A stretch of 64,000 bases of DNA from an uncultured archaeon (GTDB taxonomy: Archaea > Thermoproteota > Bathyarchaeia > Bathyarchaeales > Bathycorpusculaceae): contig CAWENF010000021.1 of assembly GCA_963810275.1 (NCBI GenBank), positions 64,001-128,000 of the forward strand, in the 5' to 3' direction. The translations under genes were made by a program, and so were the position numbers. Below are positions 2,611 through 9,894 of the stretch, piece by piece (position 1 is the first letter of the stretch; every line of letters starts with the position of its first letter). The notes beneath the pieces are model-generated. The model worked only from the letters and a program-made list of their open reading frames with translations, was not told where the DNA came from and did not search any database.

Positions 2611-4053
2611 TTGACAAGGAAGGGATTATATATATTTTTTGCGCTTCTGCTCTTGACTAACTTAATGGCTTCAATTTTGCTTGGAACATTAAACGTTGCT
2701 GTGGCAGAGCATCAAAACAGAGTAGACGCCATGGCAACCTCTCAATCCACTGACGACTGGCCAATGTTTCACCATGACGTTTACCACTCAGGTTATTCCA
2801 CATCCGCGGCTCCAACAACAAACCAGCTCCTTTGGAAATACGAAACCGGCAATATGGTTGAATCTTCGCCTATTGTCGCCAACGGCATAGTCTATGCAGG
2901 CTCTGATGACGGTTTTGTCTACACCTTGAATTCTTCAACTGGCAAATTGATATGGAAATACTCAATAGGTCCGATGGTGGATTCTTCGCCCGCTGTTGCT
3001 AACGACGTAGTCTATATCGGAGCACTAAATCGTGATGGCAACATAAGCATCATTTATGCTTTGAACGCTACAACAGGCATTCAAATATGGAACTTAACAA
3101 CATGCGGACCTGTAGGATCTTCTCCCACTTCCGCCAATGGCACAGTTTATGTAAGCGCCTACATCGGGTTTTTTAAAGGTGCAATTTATGCTTTGACCGC
3201 CGCAACAGGCGAATTAATATGGAACTACCAAACAGATGGAGGAATGGAATCTTCTCCTGCTGTTGCCAACGGCGTAGTCTATGTTGGGTCAAATGACTGC
3301 ATGGTCTATGCTTTGAATCAAGCAAGTGGAGCATTGCTATGGAACTTCACAACGGGCGGGAGTGTGACTTCTTCTCCCTCAGTTGCTAATGGTGTTGTAT
3401 ATGTTGGTTCATGGGATGATAACGTATATGCTTTGAATGCTGTAACTGGCAAGCTATTATGGAATTATACAACAGGCTTAAATGTGGGGTCATCACCCGC
3501 AGTAGTCGATGGCGTAGTCTACATTGGTTCAGAAGACGGGAACGTATACGCTTTGAATGCAGCAACTGGATCTTTAGTATGGGAATACACAACAAAAGGG
3601 GCAGTTTGGTCATCCCCTGCAGTCATTAACGGAGTGGTCTACATAGGGTCAGAAGACAGAAACATGTATGCCTTGGATGCTAAAACAGGCACACAATTAT
3701 GGAACTTTACAACAGGTAAACAAGTAGAGTCTTCGCCCGCTGTATCCAACGGAGTAATCTATGTGGGCTCAAATGATGGTAACGTATATGCCTTTGGAAC
3801 AAACACTGTGTCATCATTAAACCCAACCTCTAATAGCTCCCTTCAGCCATCGCCCTCAGCTTCTTTCTCAACGTTACTTATTGTCATACTCGCCATTATG
3901 ATTGCTGCAGTTATAACCATAGTCATAGCTTCTCTACCATTCAAGCGGAAAGCAAAAACAAACAGAAAAGCCGACAATATCCCCGAAAAAATAGAAATGA
4001 AAATGCCAAATTGCATAAAAACAGATTTTACTCAAAGTCTCAAACCTGAATGA
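2611..4053 (+). CDS. Membrane-anchored PQQ-like/BamB-type beta-propeller repeat protein
   Basis: Signal peptide, WPMFHHD motif, ~8 repeats of SSP(A/S)V.NGVVY.GS.DG.VYAL.A.TG.L.W, Ser/Pro linker and C-terminal TM. Confidence 0.9.
   Translation: MTRKGLYIFFALLLLTNLMASILLGTLNVAVAEHQNRVDAMATSQSTDDWPMFHHDVYHSGYSTSAAPTTNQLLWKYETGNMVESSPIVANGIVYAGSDDGFVYTLNSSTGKLIWKYSIGPMVDSSPAVANDVVYIGALNRDGNISIIYALNATTGIQIWNLTTCGPVGSSPTSANGTVYVSAYIGFFKGAIYALTAATGELIWNYQTDGGMESSPAVANGVVYVGSNDCMVYALNQASGALLWNFTTGGSVTSSPSVANGVVYVGSWDDNVYALNAVTGKLLWNYTTGLNVGSSPAVVDGVVYIGSEDGNVYALNAATGSLVWEYTTKGAVWSSPAVINGVVYIGSEDRNMYALDAKTGTQLWNFTTGKQVESSPAVSNGVIYVGSNDGNVYAFGTNTVSSLNPTSNSSLQPSPSASFSTLLIVILAIMIAAVITIVIASLPFKRKAKTNRKADNIPEKIEMKMPNCIKTDFTQSLKPE
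3214..3795 (+). repeat. ~120-bp imperfect tandem repeats encoding beta-propeller blades
   Basis: Units such as tatgctttgaat, tatggaa and tcttc(t/g)cc recur at 120-bp spacing. Confidence 0.75.
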
Positions 4054-4124
4054 TTGAAGTAGTGTCCATTAACCCACAAGTGGTTAAATATAAAGAAAAG
4101 CTCCTTATTCTTGGGCATGTGATA

Positions 4125-4553
4125 ATGAGCATGGACACTAGTAGTTTTACTTACATGAATAATTATCTTACTACAATATCCATTTCATTAATGCTAGTAG
4201 CTCTAGGGATCGCAATCAGCGGAATAGGTTTTGCCCGACTCAGAACCATGGAAGGACAAAAAGTTCATCGTTGGATGATGAGCGGAGGAGTCATTTTAAG
4301 CTTAATATCAATTTCCTTAGTCATGTTTCCTTCCCTGTTTATGTACTATTTAGGCGGTTACAGTATTACTTCTGGATTCTCAATTCTGCAGATAATTCAT
4401 TCAGTTGAAGGCGCTCCGGCGGTAGCATTATCTTTAATGTACCTCTTTAATGATTTACCTACACATACACGCAAATGGATGCGGATAACAGCTGTTCTAT
4501 GGATAACAAGTGTTGCACTAGGTGTAGCTGTCTATTGGACTATGCCATTTTAA
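4125..4553 (+). CDS. DUF420-like membrane protein (oxidase-associated)
   Basis: 4 TM helices, HRWMM and IH motifs. Converges on heme O synthase. Start moved from 4050 to ATG 4125 because a TATA-like sequence lies at 4085-4094. Confidence 0.7.
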   Translation: MSMDTSSFTYMNNYLTTISISLMLVALGIAISGIGFARLRTMEGQKVHRWMMSGGVILSLISISLVMFPSLFMYYLGGYSITSGFSILQIIHSVEGAPAVALSLMYLFNDLPTHTRKWMRITAVLWITSVALGVAVYWTMPF

Positions 4554-4554
4554 C

Positions 4555-5424
4555 CTAAACCACGCCCAAAACAATTTTATCAACTACAAGACCAAGCATT
4601 AAGGCTGCCAAGTAGGGCATAGATGCAAAGAAAACCCTAAATCCGTTTGCTTCAGAGGGCACCAAAGTAAGCCTTCTACTCTCAAGCAGTAGCCAAGCAC
4701 CCCCAGACAGCGCAAACAAAGTATACATGCCTCCAGCTAACCCCAGAACGGGTAATATTAAAGTTGACGCCACGGTAGCTATGTTAAAGAAAAAAACGAT
4801 CTTTGCCGTTAACCCTAAACCCGCCGTGACAGGAAGCATAGGAATCTTAGCCCGCCGATACTCAGCTACCTTCTTGATGGCAAGCCCCCACAGATGCCCC
4901 GGCGTCCAAAGAAAATCAACCGTTGAAACCAGAAACGGCAATGCACCCACAGAGTTCGCTACAGCTGTCCAGCCTGAAAGAGCAGCAAAGCACCCTGCAA
5001 GTCCACCTATGACCACATTCCAATTGCTTGTGCGTTTCAAAAGAATGGTGTATACCAACAGGTAAAAGATTGCCCCCGAAAACATCATGACAGCAGTTAA
5101 GGCGTTGAAAAAGTAGTAGCTCATACCTAAGCCTGCTCCAATTAGAAGCACTCCAAAAATCAATCCCTTCCCAGACGTAATCTTCCCTGAAGGAATTGCC
5201 CGCTTTGAGGTTCTCTGCATGAGCAGATCAGAGTCCCGGTCGTATACACAATTCAATGCGCCGCATCCTCCACAGGCTAGGTATCCAGCAAGACAAAAAA
5301 TCGTTAAATCTAACCAATTGATTGATGGATAAGCTGCAAGGAAGAAGCAAGTTATCCCAACCAGTAGGTTAAGCAACGTCACCTTGGGTTTGGTTAACTC
5401 TAAGTACTTGAGAATTTTATCCAT
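4555..5424 (-). CDS. cyoE: Protoheme IX farnesyltransferase (heme O synthase)
   Basis: Motifs LTKPKV, NCVYDRDSDLLMQRT..R.IPSG, YTILLKR, WTPGH and EY..A.IPMLPV. Confidence 0.95.
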   Translation of the reverse strand: MDKILKYLELTKPKVTLLNLLVGITCFFLAAYPSINWLDLTIFCLAGYLACGGCGALNCVYDRDSDLLMQRTSKRAIPSGKITSGKGLIFGVLLIGAGLGMSYYFFNALTAVMMFSGAIFYLLVYTILLKRTSNWNVVIGGLAGCFAALSGWTAVANSVGALPFLVSTVDFLWTPGHLWGLAIKKVAEYRRAKIPMLPVTAGLGLTAKIVFFFNIATVASTLILPVLGLAGGMYTLFALSGGAWLLLESRRLTLVPSEANGFRVFFASMPYLAALMLGLVVDKIVLGVV

Positions 5425-5445: not shown

Positions 5446-5949
5446 TCATCCATAATCGGCGATAATAGTAACCGTGCCCCAAAGCCCTTTTTCAGTTTGA
5501 CCAGAAATTGGGCTTGTATAGAAAAAGGAGGTACCTACAATGTTTGGGTTAAAAACAACCGAACCGCTTTCTCCTTGCTGTAATGGATTGCTAACTGACC
5601 CTATAGCTGCATCAAAGACTACGGAAGATTCTGATCGTCGATCATTTGTGATTTGGAAAGCATGCGGCATCTTTCCAATATTAATCACCGTTAAATTGAC
5701 TAAATCACTTGTTTTAAACCTAAGAGTTGGTCCTGGAGTTGATAATTTGTTTGGTTCAGTTCCAAATCCGTATTGTGTATCAGATATTTCTCCTGCATAA
5801 AGCGTGATGTTTAATGTTGGAATCTCAGATGAAGCTGTTCCAGCAATGTAAGGTTGCTGTATAGGTAAAAGCAAGAAGAGTGCTACTGCAACGATAAGCG
5901 CAATTGCACACGCTGCTATGACAACCAATGGATAATAAGACTTGTCCAT
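5446..5949 (-). CDS. Membrane-anchored cupredoxin-fold protein lacking type-1 copper ligands
   Basis: Paralog of 9295..9894 (TLYAG, PGPTL, PHAF), but FYTSPISGQTEKGLWG replaces YVCTVPGHISLGMWG. Confidence 0.8.
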   Translation of the reverse strand: MDKSYYPLVVIAACAIALIVAVALFLLLPIQQPYIAGTASSEIPTLNITLYAGEISDTQYGFGTEPNKLSTPGPTLRFKTSDLVNLTVINIGKMPHAFQITNDRRSESSVVFDAAIGSVSNPLQQGESGSVVFNPNIVGTSFFYTSPISGQTEKGLWGTVTIIADYG

Positions 5950-5952
5950 TCC

Positions 5953-6216
5953 CTATCGCCCCACCGAAAGTATAGCCGTAACAATTAACGTGCTAATAGT
6001 AATAATTGCCAGAAGCGGAAGCAGAGATATAACTTTTTTTTCATACCGCAAATTCATAAAAAAGGCAGCATTTGTAACAGCTTGTGAGCCAGCTAAAATG
6101 AGTATACTAACAGCTTTATATTCAACTGATAGAGCGGTTGTGAAAATATAGATCTCGCCAAAAGTTGCCGCTACTAATAACCCCCAGATACTTATGTACA
6201 ATGTTTTTCTGTCCAT
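5953..6216 (-). CDS. Heme-copper oxidase subunit IV (CyoD/CtaF family)
   Basis: 87 aa, 3 TM helices, Q.......FMNLRYE motif. SD GGAGTG upstream of ATG 6216. Follows subunit III. Confidence 0.85.
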   Translation of the reverse strand: MDRKTLYISIWGLLVAATFGEIYIFTTALSVEYKAVSILILAGSQAVTNAAFFMNLRYEKKVISLLPLLAIITISTLIVTAILSVGR

Positions 6217-6227
6217 TTTTTTCACTC

Positions 6228-7019
6228 CTATATCAAATAGAAAAGCGGGAAAAGAAAAATCCAAACAATGTCGACAAACGCCCAATAGATTCCAATAAGC
6301 TCAAGCGAAGTATGCGATAAAGGCGTAAATCGACCAGCAAAGCCTTTAGCCATAAGATAGGTAAGCCCACCTAAACCTATGCCTACATGAATGGCGTGTA
6401 ACCCCATCAATGTATAGTAACTAGAAGGTGCTAGTCCCCCAGTTATTACAAATCCGTTAGCAATCTCTCGCGGCCATTCGATGGCAAGTTTAACCATCAA
6501 AAATAACGAGCCTAAAGTGAAGGCACTTAGCAGCCCCATCTTTATGCCTAGTTGATCATTTTTTCTTGCTGATTGGACAGCAAGAACCATCGCCAGACTG
6601 CTCGTTAAAAGGAAAACAGTATTTACAGCCCCAATGACGACATTATGTGTCTCTCCAGCTACTGGCCACGTTGGGCTTCCTAATCGTACATATATATATC
6701 CGAAGATTATGCAGCCAAACAACACTATCTCGGACATTAGAAAAACCCAGACACCAATTTTCTCTTTGCTGGCAGTTTCAAAGGGCCATTTTTCTCTTAC
6801 GGGCTCCTTGACTACTGCATACTTGTCATGGTAGTCGTCTATGAACCATTTTACAACAGCACCCGCGATTATCACTAACCCAGCTATTGCAAGCGGGATA
6901 AACATGATAAATCCATATAGAAAAAGAATTGTACCGATCGCGATAACTACTGGAAGAAAAGTCCGTTTTTTTGGTTCTTCATCTATGGTGTTGTCCTGTT
7001 CATTCGTAGTCGTTGACAT
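6228..7019 (-). CDS. coxC: Heme-copper oxidase subunit III
   Basis: Motifs GVWVFLMSEIVLF, NTVFLLTSS, GLHAIHV and YWAFVDIVWIFLFPLFY. SD GGAGG upstream of ATG 7019. Confidence 0.93.
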   Translation of the reverse strand: MSTTTNEQDNTIDEEPKKRTFLPVVIAIGTILFLYGFIMFIPLAIAGLVIIAGAVVKWFIDDYHDKYAVVKEPVREKWPFETASKEKIGVWVFLMSEIVLFGCIIFGYIYVRLGSPTWPVAGETHNVVIGAVNTVFLLTSSLAMVLAVQSARKNDQLGIKMGLLSAFTLGSLFLMVKLAIEWPREIANGFVITGGLAPSSYYTLMGLHAIHVGIGLGGLTYLMAKGFAGRFTPLSHTSLELIGIYWAFVDIVWIFLFPLFYLI

Positions 7020-7020
7020 C

Positions 7021-8580
7021 TTAGCCGCCTCCTCCTTTTTCCACTGTTGATTCAGGCATGTCTGGTTCTGCCGAGATATAATCACCGGTCCATTCAGGTG
7101 CTACTGCATCCCACGGGTTTGGTTTGCAACGCTTGCCTCTAAAGGCGCTATGTCCAATATTTATAAAAGAAATTAAGAGAACAGGACCAAAGATAAGTGC
7201 GCCTATTGTAGCAACTAAATTAAAGGGCCACCATTCAGGATTGCTACCATAGCTGGCTACTCTTCTTGGCATGTCTACAAGCAAAAAGTATGGAAAATAA
7301 AGAACGTTGAAACCTAAGAACGAAAAAAGAAAAGTAATCTTTCCAATTTTCTCGTTGTACATTCTGCCTGTGATTTTAGGGAACCAGTAGTAGAGTGCAG
7401 CTACTAGACCAAAGATTGTGGTCCCCACCATTACATAATGAAAGTGTCCTACAACCCAGTAAGTACCTCTATAAGCATAATCCAAAGCTATTGAGGCCTG
7501 AAAAACACCTGTGATTCCGCCCAAAATTACGAAAAATAAAGCGCCCATTGCATAGAGCATAGGTGTAGGAATTTTCAAAGCGCTTTTGCGCAAAGTGAGA
7601 ATCAAACCAATAACTAAGCCCTCAAAAGGAACAGAAATCGCCATTGTCGTCAGGGAAAAAACTTCTCTAACTTGCAAGCTTATTCCTGTCATAAACATGT
7701 GATGGATCCATACTCCAGCACTAAGCACCGTAACTGCAGCCATTTCTATTATGAAAACTTTCTTCTGGAAAAGGGGTCTTTTACTGAATGTAACGAATAT
7801 CTCTGCTATGGCACCGAGAGCAGGGAGAACCACTATGTATACTTCGGGGTGTCCAAAAAACCAGAAAAATTGGTCCCATAAAAGTGCCCCCCCAAGAGGA
7901 CTGGAAAAGAATACAGTACCAAATACGCGGTCAGTAATAAGCAAGACAGCGGCTGCTGCTATGGGCGGAAAGGCAAAGAGCATCAGAAAATTTGTAAACA
8001 AAACAGACCAAGTGAACGGAGGCATTTTCCACCAGTGCATGCTTTTGATTCGTGTTCTAAGAATGGTAGTTATGAAATTAACTGAAGACATAGTAACTGA
8101 AGCCGCAAGTATACCTAACGCAAGAACACCAATAGCCATTCCAGGTTGCGGCATGTAAGCGCTTGTATTAAGCGGCGCATACATTGTCCAACCTGCTTGT
8201 GGTCCACCGCCTGGCAAAAATATGGTACTCACAAGCATAAGCCCGCTTAAAACGTACAACCAATAGCTCATTGCGTTTAATCTGGGAAAAGCCATTTCTT
8301 TTGCGCCTATCTGTGTTGGAACAAAATAGTTAGCCAAAGCTATTCCAAAAGGAGACAAAAACCAAAGAATCATTATCAAACCATGAAAACTAATGGCTTG
8401 TTCGTAAAGACCAGGTGTAAGAAGCCCACCATTTGGAACAGCCAGTTGGCCTCGAACCGTCTCCGCTATGGTACCGGCTAAAGTAAGAAAAAATATAGAA
8501 GTAACCAGATATAGAAGACCAACGTCTTTGTGGTTGGTAGTAGTTAACCATCTTTTTAGTGAAAACCCTTTTTCGTACAC
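7021..8580 (-). CDS. coxA: Heme-copper oxidase subunit I, A-family (A1-like GHPEVY)
   Basis: Motifs TTNHKDVG, FHGLIM, MAFPRLN, GWTMYAPL, WFFGHPEVY, WIHHMF, GHFHYV and MPRR. Confidence 0.97.
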   Translation of the reverse strand: MYEKGFSLKRWLTTTNHKDVGLLYLVTSIFFLTLAGTIAETVRGQLAVPNGGLLTPGLYEQAISFHGLIMILWFLSPFGIALANYFVPTQIGAKEMAFPRLNAMSYWLYVLSGLMLVSTIFLPGGGPQAGWTMYAPLNTSAYMPQPGMAIGVLALGILAASVTMSSVNFITTILRTRIKSMHWWKMPPFTWSVLFTNFLMLFAFPPIAAAAVLLITDRVFGTVFFSSPLGGALLWDQFFWFFGHPEVYIVVLPALGAIAEIFVTFSKRPLFQKKVFIIEMAAVTVLSAGVWIHHMFMTGISLQVREVFSLTTMAISVPFEGLVIGLILTLRKSALKIPTPMLYAMGALFFVILGGITGVFQASIALDYAYRGTYWVVGHFHYVMVGTTIFGLVAALYYWFPKITGRMYNEKIGKITFLFSFLGFNVLYFPYFLLVDMPRRVASYGSNPEWWPFNLVATIGALIFGPVLLISFINIGHSAFRGKRCKPNPWDAVAPEWTGDYISAEPDMPESTVEKGGGG

Positions 8581-8583
8581 TTT

Positions 8584-9246
8584 CTAACTTACTCCTTGGC
8601 TTGCAGCGGTCTGGTTTAGCCATTGAGCAAATGCTTGTTGACTCATGACTACTAGATTAGCATCCATGAAGGTATGTCCAATTCCGCAGAGTTCATAACA
8701 TTTAATTTGATAAGTGAGTTCATTCTGTCCCTCGAGGGAGGGCACGCTTAACCAAATGATATTGTATCTATCGGGTATAGCATCAGTTTTAATCTTGAAC
8801 TGCGGTAATCCAAAATCATGCATAACGTCCTTGCTTGTAACATTAAAAATAACAGTCGTATCCACAGGGATTCTACAATCAGTGGCTACAGTTACATTGT
8901 TTGGATAAGTGAATTCAAATGCCCACTGGAAGGCAGTAACATCGATAACTATAGCATTTGGATCATTAGGCGGTGTTTGAATTCCATAAGCAACTTGATC
9001 AGACAGTATCGATAAAGTGAAAAGTATACTTAAAGAAACCATGGCAAGAACAATTGCTTCTCTTGCTCTGGATTTGAAATGTACTTTAGATATCTTGAAT
9101 TCCCGTCGCCCGACGTTCTTACGGTTAACATAAGCATAATAAACCATATAGCCAACTACTATGCCGCCAGCTACTATCCCTATTATGAAAAATGGTGTGA
9201 AAAGATTGTAGTAAGTTTCCGCTGTCGGGGGAATCGGCAAACTCAT
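8584..9246 (-). CDS. coxB: Heme-copper oxidase subunit II with CuA centre
   Basis: 2 TM helices, FQWAF, DVMH and CYELCGIGHTFM. No CxxCH heme c motif. Confidence 0.95.
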   Translation of the reverse strand: MSLPIPPTAETYYNLFTPFFIIGIVAGGIVVGYMVYYAYVNRKNVGRREFKISKVHFKSRAREAIVLAMVSLSILFTLSILSDQVAYGIQTPPNDPNAIVIDVTAFQWAFEFTYPNNVTVATDCRIPVDTTVIFNVTSKDVMHDFGLPQFKIKTDAIPDRYNIIWLSVPSLEGQNELTYQIKCYELCGIGHTFMDANLVVMSQQAFAQWLNQTAASQGVS

Positions 9247-9294: not shown

Positions 9295-9894
9295 TTAACT
9301 GACCACTACATTGCCCCACATGCCAAGAGAAATATGTCCTGGAACAGTGCATACATAGTAATAGTTGCCTGCTTTGTCAGGAGTAAATGTAACTGACGCT
9401 GATGTGCCTGGCGGTATATAGCTAGATATGTTAATGCCTGCACCAAACAATGGTGAGTTGCTTGTCGCTTTTGTTGAGACTATTTCCCATGAATGTGGAA
9501 TTTTACCCGCATTATGAACAGTCATGGTATACGTTGTACCCGCCTTAAGGTGTAAGGTAGGACCTGGAGAAACTATACTACTTGCGCTATCTCCGTAGCC
9601 ATAGGTACCTGAACCAGAGGTAACTGAGCCAGCGTATAATGTTAAAGAAGTCTGGCTCCCTGAACCAGACGGAGCGGGAGAAGTTGATGGTGAAACTGAT
9701 GTAGAAGTGGATGGTGTAGAAGAGGGGGAAATTGATGGGGAGGATACAGGCGTTGACGTCGGCAGCACATTTGATGAATTGGGTAACGTGATTTCGTAAG
9801 TTATTACCCCAACAGCTATGATAATCACTGTTACTACGATTGCAGCGACGTACCAGCCTATGCTTATTTTGGTATCTTCTGTGTTTTCTGCCAT
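9295..9894 (-). CDS. Membrane-tethered type-1 blue copper protein (sulfocyanin/rusticyanin/halocyanin-like)
   Basis: N-terminal TM, Ser/Thr/Pro linker, ligands PHSW and YVCTVPGHISLGM. First gene of the oxidase operon. Confidence 0.9.
   Translation of the reverse strand: MAENTEDTKISIGWYVAAIVVTVIIIAVGVITYEITLPNSSNVLPTSTPVSSPSISPSSTPSTSTSVSPSTSPAPSGSGSQTSLTLYAGSVTSGSGTYGYGDSASSIVSPGPTLHLKAGTTYTMTVHNAGKIPHSWEIVSTKATSNSPLFGAGINISSYIPPGTSASVTFTPDKAGNYYYVCTVPGHISLGMWGNVVVS

What the first reader, a model, noticed from the sequence alone, without database searches (positions are those of the whole stretch)
7590..7850. Oxidase subunit I has lost the canonical K proton channel and gained a Glu in helix VIII
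Seen: helix VIII reads TTMAISVPFEGLVIGLILTL. It aligns without gaps to the recalled A-family sequence [20 protein letters not shown], giving Thr->Phe, Gly->Glu (7621-7623) and Lys->Leu (7615-7617). The helix VI Ser is also Ala (GAIAEI vs GIISHV). All six His ligands and the cross-linking Tyr are intact. Established: the K-channel Lys is near-invariant in A-family oxidases and needed for turnover. Inference: a variant subfamily with a rerouted proton path, altered pumping stoichiometry or altered substrate handling.
Basis: partly seen in the sequence, partly recalled or inferred. Interest (0 to 1): 0.85.

Follow-up and report, generated by a model that had tools for sequence, protein, structure and literature searches.

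The report
Archaeal oxidase with lysine-less proton channel
This respiratory oxygen-reducing enzyme really lacks the textbook proton-channel lysine and carries a buried glutamate instead, but that is the fixed signature of a large, already catalogued archaeal oxidase group, not a one-off oddity.

Summary
CoxI (7021-8580, minus strand) aligns without gaps over helix VIII to solved A-family oxidases and reads F319/E320/L322 where they have T/G/K, and A259 where they have Ser. All six His ligands, Tyr248 and the D-channel residues are present.

It is not decay. In a masked-site tree of 187 sequences, the query sits in a clade of 67 (support 1.0) that mixes Bathyarchaeia, Aeropyrum/Desulfurococcales, Nitrososphaeria, haloarchaeal I+III fusions, Marsarchaeota and Thermoplasmata. 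All 67 lack the Lys.

The loss is already tabulated by Degli Esposti et al. 2021 (PMC8239418) as a "modified" K-channel for Aeropyrum, Marsarchaeota and Thermoplasmatales COX1-3. An Aeropyrum aa3 oxidase has been purified.

One feature I did not find in print. Every clade member has exactly one carboxylate on helix VIII, at position 313 or 320 (seven residues apart, same helix face), never both or neither: 67 of 67, and 120 of 120 in each of two samples that partly overlap the tree set. Ser316 lies between them and is near-invariant. The two positions switched at least six times.

Most likely this is a working O2 reductase whose Lys path is replaced by a carboxylate/Ser path. That mechanism is inferred and untested. 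I rate it a new member of a known kind, of modest interest.

The parts
7021..8580 (-). coxA: heme-copper oxidase subunit I, A-family (HPEVY, A1-type), 519 aa
   Evidence: AF2 model has pLDDT 83 and pTM 0.88. The Foldseek top 50 are all A-family chains, TMq 0.81-0.89.
7594..7677 (-). Helix VIII (residues 302-329 in the model), holding M313, S316, F319, E320 and L322
   Evidence: Helix limits from DSSP on the model; residue states.
7621..7623 (-). E320 (GAG): the carboxylate at the position that is Gly/Ala in Lys-type enzymes
   Evidence: Gly 69, Ala 12 and Ser 1 of 82 Lys-type sequences. Glu/Asp in 43 of the 67 clade members.
7633..7635 (-). S316: clade-specific Ser between positions 313 and 320 on the same helix face
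   Evidence: Ser in 66 of 67 clade members, against Ala in 74 of 82 Lys-type sequences. Ser in 120 of 120 in the second sample.
7615..7626 (-). F319-E320-G321-L322: canonical Thr and Lys replaced by Phe and Leu
7801..7851 (-). Helix VI segment H244-P-E246-V-Y248 ... A259-E260: CuB His, D-channel Glu and cross-link Tyr kept, K-path Ser replaced by Ala
8584..9246 (-). coxB: subunit II with CuA motif (C..ELCG..H..M)
   Evidence: (PF00116)
6228..7085 (-). coxC: subunit III. The probable true start is the ATG at 7019, one base after the coxA stop. It is a separate gene here but fused to subunit I in many relatives.
   Evidence: (PF00510)
5953..6285 (-). coxD: prokaryotic subunit IV
   Evidence: PF03626
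9295..9894 (-). Membrane-anchored blue-copper protein (plastocyanin/sulfocyanin-like), a candidate electron donor
   Evidence: PF00127, PF06525
5446..5949 (-). Second cupredoxin-like protein
   Evidence: weak PF07732 match
4555..5424 (-). ctaB-like UbiA prenyltransferase (heme O synthase)
   Evidence: PF01040, E 4e-51

Best explanation
The gene encodes a functional A-family (A1, HPEVY) heme-copper O2 reductase, probably of a Bathyarchaeia archaeon. It sits in a coxB-coxA-coxC-coxD operon with two cupredoxins and heme O synthase. It belongs to an old, mostly archaeal clade, the 'COX1-3' or Aeropyrum type. In this clade the canonical K-path residues (Ser in helix VI, Thr and Lys in helix VIII) are fixed as Ala/Gly, Phe and an aliphatic residue, while the D-channel (N84, E95, N102, E246) and the Tyr-His-CuB/heme site are kept. 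In place of the Lys, the clade requires one carboxylate on another face of helix VIII, at position 313 or 320, together with Ser316.

Shown here: clade membership, conservation and the either/or rule. Inferred: the carboxylate with Ser316 forms a substitute proton-delivery route or internal proton donor towards the Tyr248/heme-hydroxyl region, doing the job of the Lys in the reductive half of the cycle. Electrons would enter from a blue-copper protein through CuA.

My confidence is about 0.9 for 'conserved clade trait of a working oxidase' and about 0.4 for the carboxylate-relay mechanism.
For: The protein is A-family by sequence and fold. Ligands, Tyr and D-channel residues are present. A CuA subunit II and the operon partners are present.

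The 120 closest homologues (56-100% identity) have no Lys at 322 and carry an acid at 320 (116) or 313 (4).

A tree of 187 sequences was built with the eight channel columns masked. It gives a clade of 67 with support 1.0. All 67 lack Lys, and all have exactly one acid at 313 (24) or 320 (43). At least 6 switches between the two positions are needed by Fitch parsimony.

A second sample found with a profile of distant clade members shows the same: 120 of 120 without Lys (74 with the acid at 320, 46 at 313, none with both or neither) and Ser316 in 120 of 120. It includes cultured haloarchaea.

Positions 313, 316 and 320 lie within 60 degrees of each other on a helical wheel, next to the most conserved face. 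In Lys-type enzymes 316 and 320 are small (Ala 74 of 82; Gly/Ala 81 of 82).

Outside the clade, three lysine-less sequences that are sister to a Lys-type one have independently gained Glu313.

The genome has only one other heme-copper oxidase, a cbb3 type, so this is its only A-type enzyme. A clade member from Aeropyrum pernix was purified as an aa3 oxidase (cited in PMC3062577).
Against: No coordinates of the model were available to me, so I could not measure whether E320 points towards Tyr248, the heme hydroxyl or a cavity. On an ideal helix, 320 lies about 100 degrees from the canonical Thr position and 160 degrees from the Lys position, so it is not a like-for-like replacement. Phe at 319 would block the classical route to the Tyr.

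The subunit II Glu at the K-path entrance is not conserved across the clade (rough alignment). Another large lysine-less clade (Lys->Gln, bacterial I+III fusions) has no such acid (34 'no Lys, no acid' sequences), so a carboxylate is not a general requirement after Lys loss.

No member's proton uptake or pumping has been measured, to my knowledge. That Aeropyrum pernix K1's own enzyme has Glu320 is inferred from an Aeropyrum MAG and from the six tabulated positions for A. camini; I did not read it directly.
Confidence: 0.6

Rival explanations
1. All chemical and pumped protons enter through the intact D-channel, and there is no K-type path at all. The helix VIII carboxylate has another role, such as hydrogen-bonding the hydroxyethyl group of the archaeal high-spin heme after loss of the Thr, charge compensation for heme reduction, or helix packing.
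For: The D-channel residues are fully kept. Phe319 and Ala259 remove the classical polar chain. 320 is not on the Lys face. The subunit II entrance Glu is not conserved. The Lys->Gln clade manages without any such acid.
Against: A buried carboxylate that is obligatory, single and movable by two turns along one face, always with Ser316, looks more like a relay along a polar stripe than a fixed hydrogen bond to one group. In canonical enzymes, loss of the Lys nearly abolishes turnover (passages in PMC12901375), so some substitute is expected.
Confidence: 0.27
2. The enzyme has changed chemistry (NO reductase or another substrate) and no longer needs the K path.
For: Some NO-reducing families derived from oxygen reductases have altered channels, and sNOR has a conserved Glu in an unusual place (PMC11214002, section 8).
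Against: Those families lack the cross-linked Tyr or alter the active site. Here Tyr248 and all three CuB His are present. The clade is classed as A-family in that paper's own sequence list, which includes Aeropyrum camini and Caldiarchaeum. An Aeropyrum member was isolated as a cytochrome oxidase.
Confidence: 0.03
3. The copy is decaying under relaxed selection, or the changes are assembly errors.
For: None beyond the departure from the textbook motif. The genome is a draft (28 contigs, 92.6% complete, 4.45% contamination).
Against: The reading frame is open with all ligands kept. The motif is identical in independent contigs from many sources and across phyla.
Confidence: 0.01

Closest known systems
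Aeropyrum-type archaeal COX1-3 oxidases ('Aeropyrum COX13', 'Marsarchaeota COX13' classes of Degli Esposti et al. 2021, PMC8239418; A. pernix AoxABC aa3 oxidase)
   Same: They fall in the same tree clade. They share the same pattern at the tabulated K-path positions: Tyr kept, Ser->Ala, Thr->Phe, Lys->aliphatic and an acid at the position after the Ser (compared). Aeropyrum and Desulfurococcales sequences read PFE(M/L)A, with Glu at 320 as here.
   Different: Subunits I and III are separate genes here and in three close relatives; most of the clade is fused. The host is Bathyarchaeia-like, a group not in that paper's tables ('Bathyarchaeota' had 0 hits in its supplements). The published table has no column for position 320 or 313, so the carboxylate rule is not recorded there.
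Canonical A1 aa3/caa3/bo3 oxidases (R. sphaeroides, P. denitrificans, B. subtilis aa3-600, bovine)
   Same: Same fold, six His, HPEVY with the D-channel Glu and cross-link Tyr, D-channel Asn/Asp set and CuA subunit II; 35-39% identity.
   Different: K-path Ser/Thr/Lys are replaced by Ala/Phe/Leu, and the Ala...Gly pair at 316/320 is replaced by Ser...Glu. The His-Asp pair at 371/372 (the Mg/Mn site by recall) is Arg-Gly. Trp326 and Phe324 are lost.
B-family ba3 oxidases and their K-channel analogue (T. thermophilus: Y237, S309, T312, Y248, Y244, II-E15; list seen in Dataset S1 of PMC11214002)
   Same: No Lys. Counting along the ungapped helix, the Ser at query 316 is at the position of ba3 S309. 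This assumes ba3 T312 matches the canonical Thr, which I recall and did not align here.
   Different: The B-type Thr/Thr and Tyr residues are absent (Phe319, Leu322, Ala259). The D-channel and HPEVY are kept. Sequence similarity to ba3 is weak (E about 1e-9).
Other lysine-less A-family clades (Lys->Gln bacterial I+III fusions; acidophile 'rus-operon' type; CyoCAB A2 type)
   Same: They show that A-family enzymes can lose the Lys.
   Different: They are separate clades in the tree. The Gln clade has no helix VIII acid. Three unnamed bacterial sequences have Glu313 but keep the Thr.

Membership tests
A-family heme-copper O2 reductase, subunit I | Six conserved His ligands for the low-spin heme, high-spin heme and CuB | tested here: met
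   H66, H244, H293, H294, H379 and H381 in the alignment; PF00115 E 3e-128.
A-family heme-copper O2 reductase, subunit I | Cross-link Tyr one turn after the CuB His in helix VI (HPEVY) and the D-channel Glu (A1 subtype) | tested here: met
   H244-P-E246-V-Y248.
A-family heme-copper O2 reductase, subunit I | D-channel entrance Asp and Asn residues | tested here: met
   N84, E95 (Asp in relatives) and N102 align with the conserved N/D/N of Lys-type enzymes. Equivalence to R. sphaeroides numbering is recalled.
A-family heme-copper O2 reductase, subunit I | K-channel Ser (helix VI), Thr and Lys (helix VIII), as in Table 2 of PMC3084760 | tested here: not met
   A259, F319 and L322. The published classifiers still place such enzymes in family A with a 'modified' K-channel.
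A-family heme-copper O2 reductase, subunit I | Closer to solved A-family than to B- or C-family chains | tested here: met
   phmmer E 4e-115 (aa3-600) against about 1e-9 (ba3). The Foldseek top 50 are all A-family.
A-family heme-copper O2 reductase, subunit I | O2 reduction and proton pumping activity | not testable with these tools
Activity is known only for an Aeropyrum clade member, from passages of PMC3062577.
Archaeal COX1-3 'modified K-channel' clade (Aeropyrum/Marsarchaeota type) | Groups with named Aeropyrum, Marsarchaeota and Thermoplasmata sequences in a tree | tested here: met
   Clade of 67, support 1.0, channel sites masked, midpoint root.
Archaeal COX1-3 'modified K-channel' clade (Aeropyrum/Marsarchaeota type) | Ser->Ala/Gly, Thr->Phe and Lys->aliphatic at the tabulated positions | tested here: met
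   The query has A, F and L. Clade frequencies are; the published rows are.
Archaeal COX1-3 'modified K-channel' clade (Aeropyrum/Marsarchaeota type) | Subunit I fused to subunit III | tested here: not met
   Separate adjacent genes here, as in P0004, P0006 and P0007. The closest relative, at 86% identity, is fused.
Archaeal COX1-3 'modified K-channel' clade (Aeropyrum/Marsarchaeota type) | One helix VIII carboxylate at 313 or 320, plus Ser316 (a feature defined here) | tested here: met
   E320 and S316 in the query. The rule holds in 67 of 67, 120 of 120 and 120 of 120 sequences.
B-family (ba3-type) oxidase | No D-channel; K-analogue Tyr/Ser/Thr/Thr residues | tested here: not met
   The D-channel is kept. 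Only the Ser (316) matches; 319, 322 and 259 are Phe, Leu and Ala.
Heme-copper NO reductases (cNOR, qNOR, eNOR, sNOR and others) | Loss of the cross-link Tyr and/or an altered CuB/FeB ligand set | tested here: not met
   The Tyr and three His are present. The criteria come from passages of PMC11214002.

The most novel reading that the evidence does not exclude
The obligatory single carboxylate on helix VIII (position 313 or 320, always with Ser316) marks a fourth, undescribed kind of proton-input path in heme-copper oxidases: a carboxylate-based substitute for the K-channel inside otherwise A-type enzymes. It would be shared by the aerobic oxidases of ammonia-oxidising and other Nitrososphaeria, Marine Group II, many haloarchaea, Aeropyrum and Bathyarchaeia, and gained independently in a few bacteria. 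If so, the usual assumption that these abundant archaea respire with textbook A-type energetics would need testing.
Probability: 0.25. Interest if true: 0.65.

Novelty: new member of a known kind. Interest (0 to 1): 0.35.

Why it matters
As given, the finding is a correct reading of a clade signature that is already tabulated, so it changes little. The residual value is the either/or carboxylate rule with Ser316. It offers a concrete, mutable candidate for how lysine-less A-type oxidases deliver protons. It applies to the main oxidases of ecologically dominant archaea, including genetically tractable haloarchaea, so the question can be tested directly.

Tried and rejected
(1) Measuring whether Glu320 lines a path to Tyr248. 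The AF2 model was made, but no coordinates reach the script box, so only secondary structure, confidence and helical-wheel arithmetic could be used.

(2) The search for related loci with the single protein returned mostly canonical bacterial oxidases matched by chance peptide patterns.

(3) The regex motif parse missed 8 of 120 sequences. These were read from alignment A1 instead.

(4) Subunit II entrance Glu. The alignment of the TM2 start is rough. The query and one Bathyarchaeota relative have a Glu nearby (AREA), while most of the clade has none. I draw no firm conclusion from this.

(5) Names for the bacterial Glu313 sequences: the cluster look-up gave none.

(6) Literature. Hemp & Gennis 2008 and Han et al. 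2011 are not held, and I did not try Pereira et al. 2001. Searches found no description of this carboxylate. It may still be described in those unseen works, in the PDF figure S7 of PMC8239418, or in its earlier companion papers.

(7) Decay and NO-reductase readings were considered and rejected (see rivals).

(8) Rows dropped. 18 of 160 sequences were dropped for poor coverage before the tree. Locus L188 was dropped because its fragment is only 352 aa. Loci L192-L194, L197 and L198 yielded no ORF with the HPxV[YF] motif in the forward frames.

Full report
**What is there.** The minus strand between about 4555 and 9894 carries a respiratory oxidase operon:
- a membrane-anchored cupredoxin (9295-9894);
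- subunit II with a CuA motif (8584-9246);
- subunit I (7021-8580, 519 aa);
- subunit III (ORF 6228-7085, probable ATG at 7019, one base after the subunit I stop);
- subunit IV (5953-6285);
- a second cupredoxin-like protein (5446-5949);
- a UbiA-type heme O synthase (4555-5424).

Subunit I matches Pfam COX1 over its whole length (E 3e-128). Its best solved relatives are A-family enzymes: B. subtilis aa3-600 at E 4e-115, then mycobacterial, Thermus caa3, Paracoccus, Rhodobacter and mitochondrial oxidases. T. thermophilus ba3 scores only about 1e-9. An AlphaFold2 model (pLDDT 83, pTM 0.88) matches only A-family chains in the Foldseek top 50, with TMq 0.81-0.89.

**The observation.** The HMMER alignment to aa3-600 is gapless through helix VIII and puts query PFEGL opposite PTGVK. 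The six His ligands and Tyr248 are present, as are the residues that align with the D-channel Asn/Asp/Asn and Glu: N84, E95, N102 and E246. Numbering in R. sphaeroides or P. denitrificans terms is from recall, cross-checked against the column heads of the published table.

**Not decay, but a clade signature.** Of the 120 best homologues (56-100% identity), none has Lys at 322. 116 have Glu at 320 (PFE[GA] in 112, including P0065, and PTE in 4) and 4 have Gly at 320 with Glu at 313 (TTE...PFG). These counts come for the 112 sequences the regex parsed and for the other 8. Named members are Bathyarchaeia/Bathyarchaeota MAGs plus one Chloroflexota MAG.

A search of 1.84 billion cluster representatives gave more distant relatives. 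I aligned these together with named loci from GTDB genomes. I then built a FastTree LG+gamma tree of 187 sequences with the eight channel columns removed, rooted at the midpoint. The query lies in a clade of 67 with support 1.0. By record titles or cluster names, the clade holds:
- Bathyarchaeia;
- Aeropyrum, Acidilobaceae and Desulfurococcales;
- Nitrososphaeria, Thaumarchaeota, Aigarchaeota and Caldarchaeum-related sequences;
- Halorubrum and other Halobacteriota I+III fusions;
- Marsarchaeota;
- Sysuiplasma and Thermoplasmata;
- a Marine-Group-II-like Euryarchaeote;
- Hydrothermarchaeota.

All 67 lack the Lys. The other 120 sequences are 82 with Lys, 34 with neither Lys nor an acid (mostly a bacterial I+III clade with Gln at that position, named Martelella, Hoeflea and Actinomycetota), and 4 with Glu313. 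The sample is biased towards relatives of the query, so these are not family-wide frequencies.

**Already known.** Degli Esposti et al. 2021 (PMC8239418) tabulate K-channel variation position by position. I read passages of the text and all of Supplementary Tables 1 and 3. 'Aeropyrum COX13', 'Ca. Marsarchaeota COX13' and 'Thermoplasmatales COX13' are listed as K-channel 'no, modified'. The row for Aeropyrum camini (Y A A F S D) matches position for position what I read in an Aeropyrum MAG, and the query would read Y A L F G E. The main text speaks of the K-channel being lost seven times in family A under one scenario.

Passages of PMC3062577 state that Ishikawa et al. 2002 isolated an A-type aa3 oxidase (aoxABC) from A. 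pernix. I did not see that paper itself. Murali et al. 2024 list Aeropyrum camini and Caldiarchaeum sequences as A-family and record one A-family enzyme in a soil Bathyarchaeia genome (supplement passages). It is not independent evidence.

**What I did not find in print.** The published table has no column for the Gly position, which is query 320. In the clade of 67, every sequence has exactly one acid at 313 (24, all Glu) or at 320 (43: 32 Glu, 11 Asp), and never both or neither. Fitch parsimony needs at least six changes between the two states and reconstructs 313 at the base of the clade.

A second sample, found with a profile of twelve distant clade members, gave the same result. Of 120 sequences (116 new), 74 had the acid at 320 and 46 at 313, none had both or neither, Ser316 was present in 120 of 120, and none had Lys. 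This sample includes cultured haloarchaea (Halogranum, Haloplanus, Halosimplex, Haloarcula, Halogeometricum, Haloferax), which read PFDLM.

Ser316 is the sharpest clade marker: Ser in 66 of 67, against Ala in 74 of 82 Lys-type sequences. Positions 313, 316 and 320 span 60 degrees on an ideal helix, beside the most conserved face. In Lys-type enzymes 316 and 320 are small residues (Ala, and Gly/Ala), which suggests close packing there. Three unnamed lysine-less sequences outside the clade, sister to a Lys-type one, also have Glu313, which points to convergence.

My searches found no description of this carboxylate. Hemp & Gennis 2008 and Han et al. 2011 are not held, and figure S7 of PMC8239418 itself is not readable here.

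**Mechanism.** Shown: an intact O2-reductase active site, an intact D-channel set, a CuA subunit and cupredoxin neighbours. Also shown: fixed replacement of all three classical K-path side chains, and an obligatory, movable helix VIII carboxylate with Ser316.

Inferred: the carboxylate and Ser316 form a substitute route or internal proton donor towards Tyr248 and the heme hydroxyl. Counting along the ungapped helix, Ser316 stands where ba3 has S309 of its K-analogue. The ba3 residue list was seen; the register T312 = canonical Thr is recalled.

Against this reading:
- 320 is about 100 degrees from the Thr position and 160 degrees from the Lys position.
- Phe319 should block the old route.
- The subunit II entrance Glu is not conserved in the clade.
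- The Lys->Gln clade needs no acid.

The main rival is that all protons use the D-channel and the acid serves the heme hydroxyl, charge balance or packing. I could not decide between the two readings, because model coordinates are not exposed.

**Verdict.** This is a new member (Bathyarchaeia, with split I/III genes) of a known lysine-less archaeal A-type oxidase clade. The either/or carboxylate rule is a testable lead of moderate interest.

Noticed in passing
own genome G000 contig C6:9858-11111 (locus L002, 1426-2865 +, and the next ORF 2862-4253): The genome's only other heme-copper oxidase is a cbb3-type CcoN (PDB best hits 9g6b and 3mk7, E 1e-64 to 1e-66). It is followed by a protein with three CxxCH heme-c motifs. 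A C-family oxidase in a Bathyarchaeia-like archaeon is uncommon.
   Followed up: partly
window 7465-7470 (residues R371-G372 of CoxI): Lys-type enzymes have a His-Asp pair here (82% and 87%); by recall these are the Mg/Mn-site ligands. In the archaeal clade it is Arg-Gly (Gly in 67 of 67), so the non-redox metal site is probably absent.
   Followed up: no
relatives P0107, P0110, P0114, P0115 (58% identity to the query, I+III fusions, PTE[MI]A motif): This subclade has Leu where all others have the first low-spin-heme His ligand (query H66) and Gly at the nearby Met. The low-spin heme may be ligated differently or lost.
   Followed up: no
window 7017-7085: Subunits I and III are separate genes with a one-base spacer (stop at 7021-7023, ATG at 7019). 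The closest relative (86% identity) and most of the clade are I+III fusions. Three other contigs end subunit I at the same place, so the split looks real.
   Followed up: partly
window 8296-8298 (residue E95): The D-channel entrance acid is Glu in the query. It is Asp in the other 29 sequences of alignment A1 and in nearly all others.
   Followed up: no
window 4050-4553 (+), and L002 850-1290 (-): Small multi-pass membrane proteins with no Pfam match lie beside both oxidase operons. They could be heme A synthase/DUF420-like assembly factors. I did not test this.
   Followed up: no
tree, bacterial I+III fusions (for example P0147, P0152, P0184): A large bacterial clade (Martelella, Hoeflea, Actinomycetota by cluster names) has Gln in place of the K-channel Lys and altered D-channel Asn positions. 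An earlier scan note (e1-5171054) describes the same clade.
   Followed up: partly
window 2611-4053 (+): A secreted or anchored PQQ-like eight-blade beta-propeller protein lies next to the oxidase operon.
   Followed up: no
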